This document shows, in pieces, positions 11,635 to 17,490 of a stretch of 64,000 nucleotides of DNA. The translations under genes and the position numbers were made by a program. The notes under the pieces were generated by a model. It was not told where the DNA came from. It searched no databases and saw only the letters and a list, made by a program, of their open reading frames with translations. Each line of letters begins with the position of its first letter. The first letter of the stretch is position 1. This DNA comes from Myxococcota bacterium (GTDB lineage Bacteria > Myxococcota_A > UBA9160 > UBA6930): positions 256,001 through 320,000 of the forward strand of contig OZ245002.1 of the NCBI GenBank assembly GCA_965223415.1, read 5' to 3'.

Positions 11635-14259
11635 ATGCGATTCGACAAGCTCACCCTGAAGAGCCAGGAAGCCCTGTCCGAGGCCCAGAGCCAGGCGACC
11701 AGCCGCGGCCACAGCCAGATCGCCCCGGCGCACCTGCTGCGCGAGCTGTTGGGCCAGCCCGAAGGCAGCACCGTCCCGATCCTCCAGAAGATCGGCGTGC
11801 GGCTGGACGGGCTCCAGGCCGAGGTGGAGCGTCTGCTCGAGGGCCTGCCCAAGGTTCACGGCGGGAGCCAGCCGACCCTCTCCCCGGGCCTCCAGCGCGT
11901 CCTCGATCGGGCCTTCGAGGAGGCCACGGCCCGCAAGGACGAGTACGTCTCCACCGAGCACCTGCTGCTCGCGATCGTGGACGACAAGCAGGACGAGTGC
12001 GGCCGGGCGCTGCGCGATGCCGGCGCCTCCCGCGAGGCGGTGGAGCAGGCGCTCCAGAGCGTGCGGGGCAGCGCCCCGATCACGGACCAGGACCCGGAGG
12101 GCAAGTACCAGGCCTTGGCGAAGTTCGGACGCGATCTCACCGAAGTGGCGCGCAGCGGCAAGCTCGATCCGGTGGTCGGGCGCGACGAGGAGATCCGCCG
12201 CGTCGTCCAGGTGCTCTCGCGCCGGACCAAGAACAACCCGGTGCTGATCGGCGAGCCCGGCGTGGGCAAGACCGCCATCGTCGAGGGCCTGGCCCAGCGC
12301 ATCGTGGCCGGCGACGTGCCCGAGACCCTGCTCGATCGCCGTGTGGTGGCGCTGGACATCGGCGCGCTCATCGCTGGCTCGAAGTACCGCGGCGAGTTCG
12401 AGGATCGGCTCAAGGCCGTGCTGCGCGAGGTGGCCGAGGCCGACGGGCAGATCATCCTCTTCATCGACGAGATGCACACGATCGTGGGCGCCGGCGCGGC
12501 GGAGGGCGCGGCAGACGCTGCCAACATGTTGAAGCCCGCTCTCGCCCGCGGTGAGCTGCGTTGCGTCGGCGCCACCACCCTCGACGAGTACCGCAAGCAC
12601 GTCGAGAAGGACGCGGCGCTCGAGCGCCGCTTCCAGCCGGTCTTCGTGGGCGAGCCCAGCGTGGAGGACACGGTCTCGATCCTGCGCGGGCTGAAGGAGC
12701 GCTACGAGGTGCACCACGGCGTGCGCATCCACGACGCGGCCCTCGTCTCGGCGGCGAGCCTCTCCCACCGCTACATCTCGGACCGCTTCCTGCCGGACAA
12801 GGCCATCGACCTGGTGGACGAAGCCGCCAGCCGCGTGCGCGTGCAGATCGACTCGATGCCCGAGGACCTGGACCAGCTCGAGCGCAAGCGCACCCAGCTC
12901 GAGATCGAGCGCGAGGCGCTGAAGAAGGAGAGCGACGAGGCCAGCGGCCGGCGCCTCGAGGCGGTGGGCGCCGAGATCGCCGAGCTCCAGGACCAGAGCC
13001 AGGCCCTGAAGGCCCGCTGGGACAACGAGAAGGGCGCCATCGCCAAGGTGCGCGAGCTCAAGGAACAGCGCGAGTCGCTCACCGCCGAGCTCCAGCGCGC
13101 CCAGCGCGGCGGCGATCTCGAGCGGGCGGCGGAGATCCAGTACGGCCTCCTGCGCCAGCTCGAGCAGGATCTCGAGGCCGAGCAGGGGCACCTGGACGAG
13201 CTCCAGAAGGAGGGCTCCGTGCTCTCCGAGGAGGTCACCGCCGAGGAGATCGCGGAGATCGTCTCCAAGTGGACCGGCATCCCCGTCTCCAAGATGATGG
13301 AGGGCGAGCAGGAGAAGCTGCTGCGCATGGAGGACGGGCTGCGGCGGCGGGTCGTGGGCCAGGACGAGGCGCTGACCGTCGTGTCCAATGCGGTGCGCCG
13401 CGCGCGCGCGGGCCTGCAGGATCCGAACCGGCCGATCGGCTCCTTCATCTTCCTCGGCCCCACCGGCGTGGGCAAGACCGAGACGGCTCGGGCCCTGGCC
13501 GAGTTCCTGTTCGACGACGAGCAGGCCATGGTGCGCATCGACATGAGCGAGTTCATGGAGAAGCACTCGGTCTCGCGCCTGATCGGCGCGCCTCCCGGCT
13601 ACGTCGGCTACGACGAGGGCGGCTACCTCACCGAGGCCGTGCGGCGCCGCCCCTACAGCGTGGTGCTCTTCGACGAGATCGAGAAGGCTCACCCGGACGT
13701 CTTCAACGCGCTCCTCCAGATCCTGGACGACGGGCGCCTCACCGACGGCCAGGGCCGCACCGTGGACTTCCGCAACACGGTCCTGATCCTCACGTCCAAC
13801 ATCGGCAGCCAGTTCCTGGTCGAGATGGACGAGAGCCAGCGCGACCAGATGGAGACCCAGGTGATGGAGGCGCTGCGGGCCCACTTCAAGCCCGAGTTCC
13901 TGAACCGAGTGGACGACGTGATCCTCTTCCACCAGCTGAAGCGCGAGCACATCGACCGCATCGTCGACATCCAGCTCGAGCGGGTGCGCGGGCTGCTGGC
14001 CGACCGGCACATCGAGCTCACCCTCACCGACGAGGCCAAGACGCTGCTCGCCGACAAGGGCTACGACCCGCACTACGGCGCACGGCCGCTCAAGCGCGTC
14101 CTCCAGCGCATGGTGCAGGACCCGCTCGCCATGAAGATCCTGGAGGGCGAGTTCCCGGACGGCAGTCGCATCGAGGCGGACGCCCGCCTGAGCGGCGAGG
14201 CCCTCGAGTTCCGGCTGCTCAGGAAGTCGAACGACGAGGCTGAGAACGGACCCGTGTAG
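11635..14259 (+). CDS. clpB: ATP-dependent chaperone ClpB
   Basis: Clp N-domain, [14 protein letters not shown], coiled-coil M domain, [25 protein letters not shown]. Confidence 0.97.
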
Positions 14260-16021
14260 GTGAGGCCGTAGATGACGCTCTCCCCGGCTGTGAACTTCGA
14301 GGCGAAGGTGCCGGGAGGCGGCGGGAAGTCGAACAGGATGTCGTAGAGCCCGTCGCCGTCCGCCTTGAAGGCGTCGACACCGGTGCTGATGTTCGTGGGA
14401 CCCACGGCGGAGCAAGGTGCTGGTAGAGCTCTCCGTCGAGGAACCCGAGCCGGCGATACCAGGGCCGGGTTCCCACCGCGGAGATCACGCTGAGCCCGGC
14501 GTAGCCCGTGCCCGCGGCGAGCCGGGCCGCCTGCTCCACGAGGCGACCGCCCAGCCCTCCGTGCTGGGCCGCGCCGGCCTTCCGCTCGCCCAGGCCAGTG
14601 CTGGTGCCGTAGACGTGGACCTCCCGCAGCAGGGCGCGGCCGACCAGCTCGGCCAGGCGCGGCTCGCCCTTGGGAAGCGTGAGGCGGGCGAAGCCCGCGA
14701 TCCGCTCCTCGTGCGTCGCCAGCTCGAGGAAGATCTCCTCGCCGACGTCACTCGCATAACGACGCTCGATCAGGCGAACGCGGGACGGGTCGACGGGCCG
14801 CCCGCGCACCTCGCGGCTACGGATCTCCCGGACCACCCTGCCCTCCTCGCGAGCCCGCCGCTCGACGACCTCGCGCAGGTTCGTCTGGCGGTTGCCGGCC
14901 ACGATGTCCGGAGACGGGATGTCGCGGACCACCCGGGTGACCCGACACCAGGGCGGCACCTCCACGAGGCAAGCGGCGAGGAGATCCACCAGCTCGTCGT
15001 GGCCGTAGGGCCGCCACTCGCCCCGCCCGTGGACCTCCATCAGCTCGGCGGTCTCGAGCAGGCTGCACGGGTACAGCTTGAGCTCGTCGGGCCGCAGGGC
15101 CGGGTCGGCGAAGAGCCGCGCGAAGTCCCGGGCGTCCTTCGCCGGCGTCGAGCCGTGCAGGTTCGCCATCCAGTGGGCGTGGATCTTGAAGCCGGCGGCC
15201 CGCAGGCGGCCCATCGCCGCGCGGGAGGTGGCGACGTCGTGGCCCCGGCGGTTGGCGGCGAGCACCTGGTCGTCCAGGCTCTGGAGCCCGAGCTGGACCT
15301 TGGTGGCGCCGAGCCGGCGCAGGCGGAGCACCTCGGCATCGCTCACGTGGTCCGGCCGGGTCTCGAGGGACAGGCCGACGCAGCGGGCTCGTGCGCTCTC
15401 GTTGGCGCGCTGGGCCGCCTCGACCCGGGCCCAGTCCGCCTGCTCCGGCTCCTCCTCGCGAGGCGCCGGGCGCTCGGGATCGAAGCGGTTCAGGGCCTCG
15501 AAGACCCGGGCCACGAACCAGCGCTGGTAGCGCTCCGGGTAGGCCGACCAGGTCCCGCCGAGCACGATCAGCTCCACCTTGTCGGTGCGGTGGCCCATCT
15601 CGTGGTAGGCGCGCAGGCGGTTCCACGCCTGGCGGAGCGGATCGAAGCCGTTGTCCAGGGCGCGCTGGCAGCCCGGCTCGTCAGCCAGGTAGCTCTTCGG
15701 CATCCGCACGTCGTCCGGGCAGAAGAGGCAGCGCCCCGGACACGGGTGCGGCCGGGTCAGCACCGTCACCGGCAGGATCCCGGAGAGCGAGCGGGTCGGA
15801 CAGGTGCGGAGGCGCTCGGCGAAGACGTCCTCCGCCACGGGCCAGCGGGACGCGTCGGCCCGGAAGGCGCGCAGGATCTCCCGCTTGGAAAAGAAGCCGC
15901 GCCCGTCCTTCGGATGCCGGCGCAGGATGGCGTTCAGGGTGCGGGGCGGGATCGGGCCTTCACCGGGCGCGTCGAGGACGTCAGCGATGAGGCCGTGTAG
16001 CGGTAGACTCGCCTGTTCCAT
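14219..16021 (-). CDS. elp3: Elp3-like tRNA uridine(34) carboxymethylation enzyme (radical SAM + GNAT/KAT domains)
   Basis: [22 protein letters not shown] (Cx3Cx2C), [57 protein letters not shown]; last ~60 aa look like read-through into a foreign fragment. Confidence 0.88.
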
Positions 16022-16736: not shown

Positions 16737-16755
16737 TCCTGCGGATGCGATCGAC

Positions 16756-17490
16756 GTGACGGCGCCGGGGGCGATCCGCCGCCAGCTCGTGGGCCCGGAA
16801 GAGGTGGCCCTCGCGCTCCAGCGAGGCGAGCCGGTCCGGCTGCTGCTCGTCGCGGAGGAGACCGCGGACCCGCAGACACGCACCGTGGTGGAGCGCGCGC
16901 TCGAGCTCGGCATCCCCGTGCGTCCGACCAGCGAGCGCTCCCTGTGGCGGCTGCGTACCCGGGACGAGCCGGCCGAGGTGCTCGGGCTGGTGGGCCCGCC
17001 GCCGGACGCGAGCCGCGAGCAGGCCCTGGCCGGCGGCGGCTGTGCCTGGCTGCTGGTGGGCCTCGCCTATCCGGGCAACACGGGCTTCGCGATCCGCGCT
17101 GCCGAGGTGTCCGGCTCCGACGCGGTCTTCGTCGACGGCGCCCTGCTCCACGAAGGCCGCCGCGAGGCCCTGCGTGCGTCGATGCGCGCCGACCACTTCC
17201 TGCCGGTGTTCTGGGAGCCCGCGAAGGGCGCGATCGAAGCGGCCCGGGCCGCCGGCCGCCGCATCCTCGCCGTGGAGGACGTGGGCGATCGGGCGCCCTG
17301 GGAGGTCGACCTCACCGTGCCGCTCCTGCTGGTCGTCGGCGGCGAGCGCCACGGCATCCCGCGGGAGGTCCTGGACGCCTGCGACGCGGCGCTTCGCATC
17401 CCCATGTACGGCTTCATCCCGTCCTACAACCTGCAGGCCGCCATGGCGATGGTGGCCGGCGAGAGGCTGCGCCAGCTCGCGGCGGGCTGA
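16756..17490 (+). CDS. SpoU/TrmH-family RNA 2'-O-methyltransferase
   Basis: YPGNTGFAIRAAE, VVGGERHGI, LRIPMYG...SYNL SPOUT motifs; start uncertain. Confidence 0.85.
   Translation: MTAPGAIRRQLVGPEEVALALQRGEPVRLLLVAEETADPQTRTVVERALELGIPVRPTSERSLWRLRTRDEPAEVLGLVGPPPDASREQALAGGGCAWLLVGLAYPGNTGFAIRAAEVSGSDAVFVDGALLHEGRREALRASMRADHFLPVFWEPAKGAIEAARAAGRRILAVEDVGDRAPWEVDLTVPLLLVVGGERHGIPREVLDACDAALRIPMYGFIPSYNLQAAMAMVAGERLRQLAAG

What the first reader, a model, noticed from the sequence alone, without database searches (positions are those of the whole stretch)
14219..17490. Candidate bacterial Elp3-Trm9-SpoU wobble-uridine modification module
Seen in sequence: an Elp3-type radical SAM/KAT gene lies head-to-head with a methyltransferase, which is followed by a SpoU 2'-O-methylase. 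The methyltransferase motifs (FY..A..F...R..PW, DVGCG.G, VLHH...RR, AFW, RYAH...EL) line up with my recollection of yeast Trm9/ALKBH8 (VY..IA.HF..TR..PW, DVGCGNG, VVHH...RR, YCW, RYYH...EL). Established: Elp3 makes cm5U34 and Trm9 methylates it to mcm5U in eukaryotes, with homologs in archaea, whereas typical bacteria use MnmE/MnmG. Inference: this locus may encode a compact cm5U to mcm5U (possibly mcm5Um) pathway in a bacterium. No Trm112 activator is visible in the window, and the SpoU link is the weakest part because it could act on rRNA.
Basis: partly seen in the sequence, partly recalled or inferred. Interest (0 to 1): 0.88.

Follow-up and report, generated by a model that had tools for sequence, protein, structure and literature searches.

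The report
Bacterial Elp3 plus Trm9-like methyltransferase pair
This bacterium lacks the usual bacterial enzymes for modifying the wobble uridine of tRNA and instead carries, head to head, the two enzymes that archaea and eukaryotes use to make mcm5U, so it probably runs that pathway; the third gene, a SpoU methylase, is most likely just a neighbour.

Summary
Window 14219-16021(-) is a full Elp3 (TIGR01211, 442 bits, cut-off 350). 16020-16736(+) is a 238-aa class I methyltransferase. A SpoU gene follows at about 16756-17490(+).

The methyltransferase is Trm9-like:
- Its best solved relative is Yarrowia Trm9 (5cm2).
- hhalign against 15 eukaryotic Trm9/ALKBH8 sequences gives 99.7% probability over 219 columns.
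- 8 of 10 mapped Trm9 active-site residues are identical.

A tree and fold searches do not resolve the relationship, and a single-sequence reciprocal search failed.

The pair is conserved. Elp3 lies divergently upstream in 44 of 80 loci from several bacterial phyla. In 151 genomes of the own phylum, 19 carry the methyltransferase and all 19 carry Elp3.

Elp3 excludes the usual bacterial route: 0 of 22 Elp3 genomes have MnmG or MnmE. The own genome lacks MnmE, MnmG and Trm112 but has MnmA, so I predict mcm5(s2)U34.

The SpoU link fails. Its orthologues occur in 11 of 22 Elp3 genomes and 8 of 129 others, and it resembles rRNA methylases.

I found no paper describing a bacterial Trm9. This scan's earlier notes report the same pair in at least 17 other genomes. 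Nothing is shown biochemically.

The parts
14219..16021 (-). elp3: radical SAM plus KAT/GNAT tRNA uridine(34) carboxymethyl-forming enzyme, 600 aa. The last ~65 residues are a low-complexity tail that relatives do not share and that overlaps the clpB 3' end by 41 bp.
   Evidence: TIGR01211 442.5 bits against a cut-off of 350. PDB best hits are Dehalococcoides Elp3 5l7j at 7.6e-87 and Methanocaldococcus infernus Elp3 at 7e-86. The CPGRCLFCP cluster motif and the QHGGLGGRL acetyl-CoA motif align to DmcElp3. Single copy in the genome. tblastn matches in relatives end at query residue 533-548.
16020..16736 (+). Trm9-like class I SAM methyltransferase, 238 aa. Proposed cm5U34 carboxyl O-methyltransferase (mcm5U-forming) that works without Trm112.
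   Evidence: Best PDB hit is 5cm2_Z (Yarrowia Trm9): 3e-10 with the single sequence and 3.3e-17 with profile A1. hhalign A1 against eukaryotic Trm9 profile A2: probability 99.7%, E 2.5e-26, 219 columns. It is the top hit of profile A2 in the own genome. Equivalents of Sc Y18, R29, D72, H115, H116, W145, R241 and N271 are present. AF2 model pLDDT 95.5. Start at 16020 is supported because all 19 aligned homologues share the N-terminus and F16, Y17, F24, R28 and W32 are invariant. The collection's own gene call is a shorter 201-aa form (P0001).
16756..17490 (+). SpoU-family RNA 2'-O-methyltransferase with an N-terminal substrate-binding domain. It is an operon neighbour and probably not part of the wobble pathway.
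   Evidence: PF00588 plus PF08032. Below cut-off for RlmB (46.9 against 160) and for TrmL (35 against 190.6). Best PDB relatives are 4x3l, 9h1k, 1ipa, 1x7o and 5kzk, annotated as RNA/23S rRNA 2'-O-methyltransferases; TrmL-type chains are the weakest hits. Adjacent to the methyltransferase in 3 of 80 loci and 6 of 17 fetched relatives. Orthologues are in 19 of 151 genomes, 8 of them without Elp3.
16019..16022 (.). CATG in which the divergent elp3 and methyltransferase start codons overlap. There is no intergenic region, so each promoter must lie inside the other gene or the transcripts are leaderless.
   Evidence: Sequence read. Estimated gaps in the nearest relatives are 10-25 bp. No sigma-70-type promoter or intrinsic terminator was found in 14000-17700.

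Best explanation
The elp3 gene and its divergent neighbour form a two-step tRNA wobble-uridine pathway of the archaeal/eukaryotic type, working in a bacterium that does not have MnmE/MnmG.

Step 1 (inferred from family membership): Elp3 uses its radical SAM cluster and acetyl-CoA to put a carboxymethyl group on C5 of U34, giving cm5U.

Step 2 (inferred from similarity to Trm9 and from gene linkage): the 238-aa methyltransferase uses SAM to methyl-esterify that carboxyl group, giving mcm5U. It uses the Trm9-type R28 / H124-H125 / W154 / R194 / N229 pocket and does so without a Trm112 partner.

Step 3 (inferred): the genome's bacterial-type MnmA adds the 2-thio group on tRNA-Lys(UUU), Glu(UUC) and Gln(UUG), giving mcm5s2U.

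Shared divergent control of the two genes, with overlapping start codons, would keep them co-expressed. The downstream SpoU gene is a lineage-specific operon passenger, most likely an rRNA-type ribose methylase.
For: Elp3 membership: TIGR01211 over its cut-off, with the catalytic motifs aligned.

Trm9 likeness of the methyltransferase:
- Best PDB hit is Trm9, with an alignment that spans the N-terminal and C-terminal family-specific segments (25-218 of 240). Other methylases match mostly the core, about 47-164.
- hhalign against a profile of 15 eukaryotic Trm9/ALKBH8 sequences gives 99.7% probability, E 2.5e-26.
- That eukaryotic profile finds this protein first in the own genome: 41.4 bits against 30.6 for the next.
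- Létoquart 2015 (PMC4678810, passages read) tested nine residues by mutagenesis or docked them (Y18). Eight of the ten are identical here. W168 is F186, and is W in many family members. Y243 is A196.
- Among 10 long proteins matching profile A1, two are fish ALKBH8.
- JGI's automatic annotation names 10 of the 120 listed homologues TRM9.

Linkage:
- Elp3 is in the held flanks of 45 of 80 loci and divergent upstream in 44. The estimated gap is 300 bp or less in 34.
- Record titles span Deltaproteobacteria/Myxococcota, Chloroflexota, Acidobacteriota, Patescibacteria, Planctomycetota and Verrucomicrobia.
- I sampled 5 genomes whose methyltransferase is not next to Elp3. In 4 of them Elp3 lies elsewhere.

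Co-occurrence in 151 genomes of the own phylum:
- Elp3 in 22, the methyltransferase in 19, and all 19 are among the 22.
- In 18 of the 19 the two lie on one contig in opposite orientation, 0.2-1.5 kb between the matched stretches.
- MnmG in 82 and MnmE in 79, and neither in any of the 22 Elp3 genomes.

Own genome:
- No MnmG; the best hit is TrmFO.
- No MnmE; one weak hit, checked, is Era; the best, a 457-aa frame matched twice in its GTPase part, looks like Der.
- MnmA is present at 423.6 bits against a cut-off of 284.
- tRNAs with the anticodons UUU, UUC, UUG, UCU, UCC and UAA are present.
Against: - No nucleoside, activity or expression data exist for this organism. No RNA run holds the locus.
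- Abbassi 2020 (PMC7663514, passages read) states that direct evidence for xcm5U in bacteria is lacking and that the one tested bacterial Elp3 has very weak activity.
- Every characterised Trm9 needs Trm112, and no Trm112 (PF03966) was found in this genome.
- A single fish ALKBH8 methyltransferase domain searched against the genome ranks this protein only 3rd and 5th, at 22.5 and 19.5 bits; the top hits score 26.6 and 28.4.
- Phylogeny is unresolved. A quick tree joins the bacterial family with eukaryotic Trm9 at SH-aLRT 88. The careful tree does not, and only 40% of 200 bootstrap trees do. The AU test merely fails to reject the grouping (p 0.369).
- Fold searches do not single out Trm9: Foldseek ranks it 3rd among near-equal hits, and it is not in the top 50 by VIA Z.
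- The Sc Y243 equivalent is Ala. In 3 of 20 aligned family members the second His of the HH dyad is Gly.
- Three Elp3 genomes of the phylum sample lack the methyltransferase.
Confidence: 0.7

Rival explanations
1. The methyltransferase is tied to Elp3 but is not a cm5U methyl-esterase. It might modify another position or intermediate of the same tRNAs, or a different Elp3 product, so the end product is not mcm5U.
For: The tree does not resolve it with Trm9. The single-sequence reciprocal search fails. Y243 is not conserved and Trm112 was not found. Fold searches are unspecific.
Against: The residues that Létoquart 2015 places around the cm5U carboxylate and the uracil ring (R29, H115/H116, W145, R241, N271) are all present. 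The profile-profile match is full length. The gene occurs only in Elp3 genomes in the phylum sample: 19 of 19, and 0 of 129 genomes without Elp3.
Confidence: 0.13
2. All three genes form one module. The SpoU enzyme 2'-O-methylates the same wobble nucleoside, giving mcm5Um.
For: SpoU follows the methyltransferase on the same strand, 20 nt after its stop. It also does so in 4 of 4 own-family relatives and 2 of 13 further relatives fetched. No TrmL over cut-off exists in the genome.
Against: Adjacency was found in only 3 of 80 cross-phylum loci. Orthologues are in 11 of 22 Elp3 genomes and in 8 of 129 without Elp3. It carries the N-terminal substrate-binding domain, and its best solved relatives are annotated as rRNA 2'-O-methylases, while the TrmL-type chains are its weakest hits. 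It scores 35 bits on TrmL, whose cut-off is 190.6.
Confidence: 0.08
3. The pairing has nothing to do with tRNA. Elp3 here acts as a protein or small-molecule acetyltransferase or radical SAM enzyme, and the methyltransferase is a small-molecule methylase in the same unknown pathway.
For: No bacterial xcm5U has been measured (PMC7663514, passages). NCBIfam gives the methyltransferase only weak sub-threshold matches to small-molecule methylases, for example CpaM at 46 bits against a cut-off of 180.
Against: [quoted passage not shown] Elp3 excludes MnmE/MnmG in 151 genomes, which fits functional replacement at U34. The neighbourhood holds no biosynthetic cluster genes.
Confidence: 0.05

Closest known systems
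Eukaryotic Elongator (Elp3) plus Trm9-Trm112 / ALKBH8-TRMT112 pathway to mcm5U34 and mcm5s2U34
   Same: The same two catalytic families in the same order. The Elp3 catalytic motifs are present. The Trm9 N-terminal Y..F..R..PW helix, HH dyad, W, RY.H and D..N motifs are present.
   Different: I did not look for Elp1, Elp2 or Elp4-6; for archaea and Dehalococcoides, Lin 2019 (passages) reports these subunits as lacking. No Trm112 was found in the genome. Thiolation would be by bacterial MnmA, not Ncs6/Urm1. Y243 is Ala. There is a 5-residue insertion before the Asn equivalent to N271, and no long insert as in ALKBH8. The genes are a divergent pair.
Archaeal Elp3 plus Trm9 (Haloferax volcanii; clustered Elp3 and Trm9 genes in Sulfolobus solfataricus)
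   Same: Stand-alone Elp3 with a Trm9 homologue, and gene clustering, as reported in van Tran 2018 (PMC6144793) and Bourgeois 2017 (PMC5372719) (passages read).
   Different: According to those papers, archaeal Trm9 works with Trm112. Here no Trm112 was found. I held no archaeal Trm9 sequence, so I made no direct comparison.
Dehalococcoides mccartyi Elp3 (5l7j), the characterised bacterial Elp3
   Same: Best PDB hit, 7.6e-87, aligned over residues 76-527.
   Different: This Elp3 has about 75 extra N-terminal residues that the chains of the bacterial enzyme in the PDB do not cover (they align from query residue 76); the TIGR01211 match begins at residue 64, and the paper says the bacterial enzyme lacks the extended N-terminus. 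It lacks the CxCxxC zinc triad that Lin 2019 calls strictly conserved in bacteria and archaea. The papers I read do not mention a methyltransferase partner for DmcElp3.
Bacterial MnmE-MnmG (with MnmC) route to cmnm5U/mnm5U34
   Same: Same target position and same role in decoding split codon boxes. It shares MnmA for the 2-thio group.
   Different: Unrelated enzymes and chemistry. It is mutually exclusive with Elp3 in the 151 genomes sampled and was not found in this genome.
CmoM (SmtA), the bacterial cmo5U to mcmo5U methyl-esterase
   Same: A class I methyltransferase that methyl-esterifies a carboxyl group on a wobble-uridine side chain.
   Different: Only weak similarity: NF008264 26.9 bits against a cut-off of 366, and PDB 8joz at 0.0075. 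It has a different substrate and different partners (CmoA/CmoB).

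Membership tests
Elp3 (TIGR01211) | Full-length score over NCBIfam's curated cut-off | tested here: met
   442.5 bits against 350, model positions 48-515 of 522; the same result in the whole-genome search.
Elp3 (TIGR01211) | Radical SAM [4Fe-4S] cysteine motif C-x4-C-x2-C | tested here: met
   CPGRCLFCP aligns to CPGKCIYCP of DmcElp3. The motif is conserved in all 55 aligned bacterial Elp3 sequences.
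Elp3 (TIGR01211) | C-terminal KAT/GNAT domain with an acetyl-CoA binding motif | tested here: met
   QHGGLGGRL aligns to QHRGLGRKL of DmcElp3, and the alignment runs to residue 527. No separate Pfam GNAT hit was listed.
Elp3 (TIGR01211) | Zinc-binding Cys triad, said to be conserved in bacterial and archaeal Elp3 (Lin 2019) | tested here: not met
   The window has R-V-V-R-E-I-R-S-R where Chloroflexota-type Elp3s have CxCIRC. The paper says eukaryotic Elp3 also lacks it, so it does not define the family.
Elp3 (TIGR01211) | Forms cm5U34 on tRNA | not testable with these tools
   Needs biochemistry or nucleoside mass spectrometry.
Trm9 / ALKBH8 methyltransferase domain | Class I SAM fold with the DxGCGxG motif and the acidic SAM-binding residue (Sc D72) | tested here: met
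   DVGCGHG, and D76 is invariant. AF2 model pLDDT 95.5 with a Rossmann-type strand order.
Trm9 / ALKBH8 methyltransferase domain | N-terminal helix with Sc Y18 and R29 (Y..F..TR..PW) | tested here: met
   Y17, F24, R28 and W32 are invariant in 20 family members. They align to ALKBH8 and to profile A2, and R28 aligns to YlTrm9 R40.
Trm9 / ALKBH8 methyltransferase domain | HH dyad (Sc H115/H116), W145, R241 | tested here: met
   H124, H125, W154 and R194. H124, W154 and R194 are invariant in A1. H125 is Gly in 3 of 20 members.
Trm9 / ALKBH8 methyltransferase domain | Sc N271, the proposed uracil-recognising Asn | tested here: met
   N229, invariant in A1, aligns to the ALKBH8 and A2 Asn after a 5-residue insertion. 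HMMER's pairwise alignment to 5cm2 stops short of it, so this depends on the alignment.
Trm9 / ALKBH8 methyltransferase domain | Sc Y243 and W168 | tested here: not met
   Y243 corresponds to A196, and to C, S, A or F across the family. W168 corresponds to F186 here but is W in many family members.
Trm9 / ALKBH8 methyltransferase domain | Obligate Trm112 partner | tested here: not met
   PF03966 gives 0 matches at E <= 0.01 in the 97.3%-complete one-contig genome, while the control rings in 9 of 14 known genomes. No Trm112 fusion appeared among the 10 longer proteins found.
Trm9 / ALKBH8 methyltransferase domain | Reciprocal best match between this protein and bona fide Trm9 | tested here: inconclusive
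   Forward: Trm9 is the best PDB hit. Reverse with a profile of 15 eukaryotic sequences: this protein is first, 41.4 against 30.6 bits. Reverse with single fish ALKBH8 domains: ranks 3 and 5.
Trm9 / ALKBH8 methyltransferase domain | Groups with Trm9 in a tree, apart from other class I methylases | tested here: inconclusive
   Quick tree: yes, SH-aLRT 88. Careful tree: no, 40% of 200 bootstrap trees. AU p 0.369, so the grouping is not rejected. The outgroup was only 16 paralogues from the own genome, and no archaeal Trm9 was held.
Trm9 / ALKBH8 methyltransferase domain | Closest fold is Trm9 | tested here: inconclusive
   Foldseek ranks 5cm2_Z 3rd (E 1.8e-11, TMt 0.74) among many near-equal class I methylases. 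VIA-align gives Z 18.4-20.7 for the 50 listed entries, and 5cm2 is not among them.
TrmL (tRNA U34/C34 2'-O-methylase), for the SpoU gene | Score over the TIGR00185 cut-off and a minimal single-domain SpoU architecture | tested here: not met
   35 bits against 190.6. It has an extra N-terminal PF08032 domain. The TrmL-type PDB chains are its weakest hits.
RlmB (23S Gm2251 methylase), for the SpoU gene | Score over the TIGR00186 cut-off | tested here: not met
   46.9 bits against 160.15. Another locus in the genome (C1:5656603-5657310) reaches 160.2 bits.

The most novel reading that the evidence does not exclude
A whole order-level lineage of Myxococcota-like bacteria, along with lineages in Chloroflexota, Acidobacteriota, Patescibacteria and others, has dropped MnmE/MnmG. 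It decodes with a hybrid wobble pathway: archaeal/eukaryotic Elp3, then a Trm112-independent Trm9, then bacterial MnmA, giving mcm5s2U34. That nucleoside is so far regarded as eukaryotic/archaeal. If so, Trm9 does not intrinsically need Trm112, and the xcm5U route is widespread in Bacteria.
Probability: 0.55. Interest if true: 0.75.

Novelty: new variant of a known kind. Interest (0 to 1): 0.62.

Why it matters
Reviews I read treat mcm5U as a eukaryotic and archaeal modification.

- Bourgeois 2017 (PMC5372719, passages) says bacteria have no homologues of the Trm112-dependent methylases.
- Abbassi 2020 (PMC7663514, passages) places bacterial Elp3 in one clade and says there is no evidence for its product.

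This locus and its relatives point to a complete bacterial version of the pathway that is conserved and mutually exclusive with MnmE/MnmG.

It would supply a naturally Trm112-free Trm9 for mechanistic work. It would also give a simple two-gene system for making mcm5U in bacteria, and a direct test of whether Elp3 alone is active in vivo.

It also bears on how old the xcm5U route is, and on how lineages swap one wobble-modification system for another.

Tried and rejected
- Fold comparison of the AF2 model (Foldseek pdb; VIA-align second look). All class I methylases score alike, so it neither supports nor excludes Trm9.
- Phylogeny with 20 bacterial, 15 eukaryotic and 16 own-genome paralogue sequences. 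The deep nodes are unresolved.
- ESM Atlas. It returned only bacterial clusters with generic names.
- Search for longer or fused forms. It gave 10 hits, with no Elp3 or Trm112 fusion.
- Complex prediction for a methyltransferase homodimer, as a possible substitute for Trm112. The queue was full, and the tool was declared unavailable, so nothing was folded.
- RNA evidence: no RNA holder was listed, so I did not use read laying.
- Promoter and terminator scan of 14000-17700: none found.
- The reverse-strand ORF 14073-14405, whose peptide looked protein-like. It has no Pfam family and no match in 97 related loci. I rejected it as a chance ORF over the elp3 tail and the clpB end.
- Glatt 2016 (PMC5018218) could not be read because it is not held. 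It may say more about the Dehalococcoides gene neighbourhood.
- Literature searches for a bacterial Trm9 or an Elp3 partner. The phrase 'bacterial Trm9' occurs in 0 papers of the library. I opened no supplementary files.

Full report
**What is there.** The ORF list and family scans confirm three genes.
- Window 14219-16021(-) encodes a 600-aa Elp3. It has Radical_SAM and Radical_SAM_C and scores 442.5 bits on TIGR01211 (curated cut-off 350).
- Window 16020-16736(+) encodes a 238-aa class I SAM methyltransferase that matches only generic Pfam methyltransferase models.
- An ORF ending at 17490(+) carries SpoU_sub_bind plus SpoU_methylase. Its likely start is the GTG at 16756, 20 nt after the methyltransferase stop.

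The elp3 ATG (16021..16019) and the methyltransferase ATG (16020..16022) overlap in one CATG. GC content is even across the region. The neighbours are housekeeping genes: three HtrA-type proteases, ClpB, PCuAC, SCO1, a ferritin-like protein, a thioesterase and DAHP synthase. Nothing suggests a mobile element.

**Elp3.** The best solved relatives are Dehalococcoides mccartyi Elp3 (5l7j, 7.6e-87), Methanocaldococcus infernus Elp3 (about 7e-86) and eukaryotic Elp3 (about 1e-76).
- The C-x4-C-x2-C cluster motif and the QH.GLG acetyl-CoA motif align.
- The gene is single copy.
- Unlike DmcElp3, it has about 75 N-terminal residues that the solved chains of the bacterial enzyme do not cover.
- It lacks the CxCxxC zinc triad, as do the Myxococcota- and Acidobacteriota-type sequences among the 55 aligned bacterial Elp3s. 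The Chloroflexota-type ones keep it.
- The last ~65 residues are a low-complexity tail that overlaps clpB by 41 bp. No relative shares it: matches end at query residue 533-548.

**Evidence that the methyltransferase is Trm9-like.**
- Its best PDB hit is Yarrowia lipolytica Trm9 (5cm2_Z): E 3e-10 with the single sequence, with the next hit at 4e-5. With a 20-sequence family profile (A1) the figures are 3.3e-17 against 9.4e-13 for UbiG.
- The Trm9 alignment covers profile positions 25-218. Most other methylases match only the core, about 47-164.
- A search for longer relatives returned 10 proteins, two of them fish ALKBH8.
- Using those, I retrieved eukaryotic stand-alone Trm9-type proteins and aligned 15 of them (A2). 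hhalign of A1 against A2 gives probability 99.7%, E 2.5e-26, over 219 columns from the N-terminal helix to the C-terminus.
- Létoquart 2015 (PMC4678810, passages read) showed nine residues by mutagenesis, or placed them (Y18) by docking, at the Trm9 active site. Eight of the ten are identical here:

| ScTrm9 residue | This protein |
|---|---|
| Y18 | Y17 |
| R29 | R28 |
| D72 | D76 |
| H115 | H124 |
| H116 | H125 |
| W145 | W154 |
| R241 | R194 |
| N271 | N229 |

  The N271 match follows a 5-residue insertion. W168 is F186 here and is W in many family members. Y243 is A196.
- JGI's automatic annotation of the 120 listed homologues TRM9.

**Evidence that does not support Trm9 likeness.**
- A single fish ALKBH8 methyltransferase domain, searched against all ORFs of the own genome, ranks this protein only 3rd or 5th, with all scores between 19 and 28 bits. 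The 15-sequence profile does rank it first, at 41.4 against 30.6 bits.
- A quick tree joins the bacterial family to eukaryotic Trm9 against 16 own-genome paralogues (SH-aLRT 88). The careful tree does not, and 40% of 200 bootstrap trees do. The AU test does not reject the grouping (p 0.369).
- The AF2 model is confident (pLDDT 95.5), but fold searches cannot separate Trm9 from other class I methylases.

**Linkage and co-occurrence.** A scan of one genome per prokaryotic species returned 80 loci encoding family members.
- Elp3 lies within the held flanks in 45 of them and is divergent and upstream in 44. The estimated gap is 300 bp or less in 34, 300-1000 bp in 5, and more than 1 kb in 5.
- Of the 35 loci without Elp3, 28 had more than 2 kb of upstream sequence and 7 did not.
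- I sampled 5 genomes from those non-adjacent cases. Four have Elp3 elsewhere.
- Record titles name Deltaproteobacteria/Myxococcota, Chloroflexota (Anaerolineae, Caldilineaceae, Ardenticatenia), Acidobacteriota, Patescibacteria, Phycisphaera and Opitutales/Verrucomicrobia.

In 151 genomes sampled evenly from the own phylum:
- Elp3 is in 22.
- The methyltransferase (E <= 1e-25) is in 19, all of them among the 22. In 18 the two are on one contig, adjacent and divergent.
- The three exceptions (G041, G065, G085) show only generic core matches.
- MnmG is in 82 and MnmE in 79. Neither is in any of the 22 Elp3 genomes.

Related genomes are not independent, so these counts describe a pattern rather than a statistical test.

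**The rest of the pathway in this genome** (one contig, 5.83 Mb, 97.3% complete).
- No MnmG: the best hit is TrmFO, at 621 bits on its own model.
- No MnmE: one weak hit, checked, is Era; the best, a 457-aa frame matched twice in its GTPase part, looks like Der.
- No Trm112: PF03966 gives 0 matches, while the control rings in 9 of 14 known genomes.
- MnmA is present at 423.6 bits against a cut-off of 284.
- ARAGORN finds tRNAs with the anticodons UUU, UUC, UUG, UCU, UCC and UAA, the usual xm5U clients.

The most economical reading is Elp3 to cm5U, the Trm9-like enzyme to mcm5U, and MnmA to mcm5s2U on Lys, Glu and Gln. All three steps are inferred. None is shown.

**The SpoU gene.**
- It follows the methyltransferase in 3 of 80 cross-phylum loci and in 6 of 17 fetched relatives: 4 of 4 in the own family, and 2 of 13 others.
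- Its orthologues are in 19 of 151 genomes. That is 11 of the 22 with Elp3 and 8 of the 129 without.
- It scores far below the cut-offs for TrmL (35 against 190.6) and RlmB (46.9 against 160). The genome has a proper RlmB elsewhere.
- Its best solved relatives are RNA/23S rRNA 2'-O-methylases (4x3l, 9h1k, 1ipa, 1x7o); the same list holds, lower down, 3gyq and 3nk6, which I recall as the nosiheptide and thiostrepton resistance methylases. The TrmL-type chains come last.

I therefore read it as a lineage-specific operon neighbour, probably acting on rRNA, and not as an mcm5Um enzyme.

**What is known.**
- Bacterial Elp3 is known from Dehalococcoides (Lin 2019, PMC6367351, abstract and passages). 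A 2026 paper speaks of 'numerous bacteria' (PMC13315578, passages).
- Clustered Elp3 and Trm9 genes are reported for the archaeon Sulfolobus solfataricus (PMC6144793 and PMC5372719, passages).
- For bacteria, Bourgeois 2017 states that no homologues of the Trm112-dependent methylases could be detected.
- Abbassi 2020 states that direct evidence for xcm5U derivatives is lacking.
- Five full-text searches found no description of a bacterial Trm9 or of an Elp3-methyltransferase pair in bacteria. The phrase 'bacterial Trm9' occurs in no paper of the library. Glatt 2016 was not held, and I opened no supplements.
- This scan's own earlier notes, which are unchecked AI notes, describe the same pair in at least 17 other genomes, mainly Patescibacteria, Chloroflexota and Coriobacteriia. 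My cross-phylum loci agree with them.

**What this window adds.**
- A Myxococcota-like lineage that carries the pair.
- The exclusion of MnmE/MnmG, shown across a phylum sample.
- No Trm112 found in a closed genome.
- A negative result for the SpoU link.

**Not done.** No expression data were available.

Noticed in passing
window 4303-14259: Three HtrA/DegP-type protease genes (4303-6105, 8484-9923, 10045-11559), the second and third back to back and the first about 2.4 kb before them, are followed by clpB (11635-14259), which converges on elp3. The clpB-elp3 arrangement recurs in 10 of the 80 cross-phylum loci and 11 of 17 fetched relatives. That may be plain synteny, or a link between proteostasis genes and wobble modification.
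   Followed up: partly
window 14219-16021 (Elp3 residues ~395-407): [quoted passage not shown] It is present in the Chloroflexota-type ones (55 sequences aligned).
   Followed up: partly
window 16019-16022: The divergent elp3 and methyltransferase start codons overlap (CATG). The nearest relatives have estimated gaps of 10-25 bp. No sigma-70-type promoter was found, so the promoters must lie inside the partner gene or the mRNAs are leaderless. An earlier scan note (e1-1060574) reports the same in a Patescibacteria genome.
   Followed up: partly
window 14219-14420: Elp3 carries a non-conserved Ser/Pro/Arg-rich C-terminal tail of about 65 residues that overlaps the clpB stop by 41 bp. It could be a real disordered tail or simply the lack of an earlier stop codon in 72% GC DNA.
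   Followed up: partly
own phylum sample: 47 of 151 genomes have neither Elp3 nor MnmG at the thresholds used. Whole families are affected: f10 0 of 11, f8 0 of 4, f4 0 of 2, and f21 7 of 8. How they modify U34, if at all, is open.
   Followed up: no
G041, G065, G085: Three Elp3-bearing genomes of the phylum lack a recognisable Trm9-like methyltransferase. They may stop at cm5U or use another finishing enzyme.
   Followed up: partly
alignment A1 (P0079, P0088, P0096): In 3 of 20 family members the second His of the HH dyad is Gly. The equivalent yeast residue, H116, is essential for activity.
   Followed up: no
window 16020-16736: The collection's own gene call for this protein (P0001) is only 201 aa. 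It omits the N-terminal helix that carries the invariant Y17, R28 and W32, so the public annotation probably starts the gene too late.
   Followed up: partly
window 17499-19830: A PCuAC and SCO1 copper-chaperone pair, an unassigned 201-aa ORF with no Pfam match that looks like a membrane protein, and a ferritin-like gene (bacterioferritin by its look) lie just downstream on the opposite strand. PCuAC and SCO1 are syntenic only in the same-genus relative.
   Followed up: no
G000:C1:4487765-4487863: The genome encodes a tRNA-Sec (anticodon UCA). I recall that mammalian tRNA-Sec carries mcm5U/mcm5Um, so its wobble state here would be worth checking.
   Followed up: no
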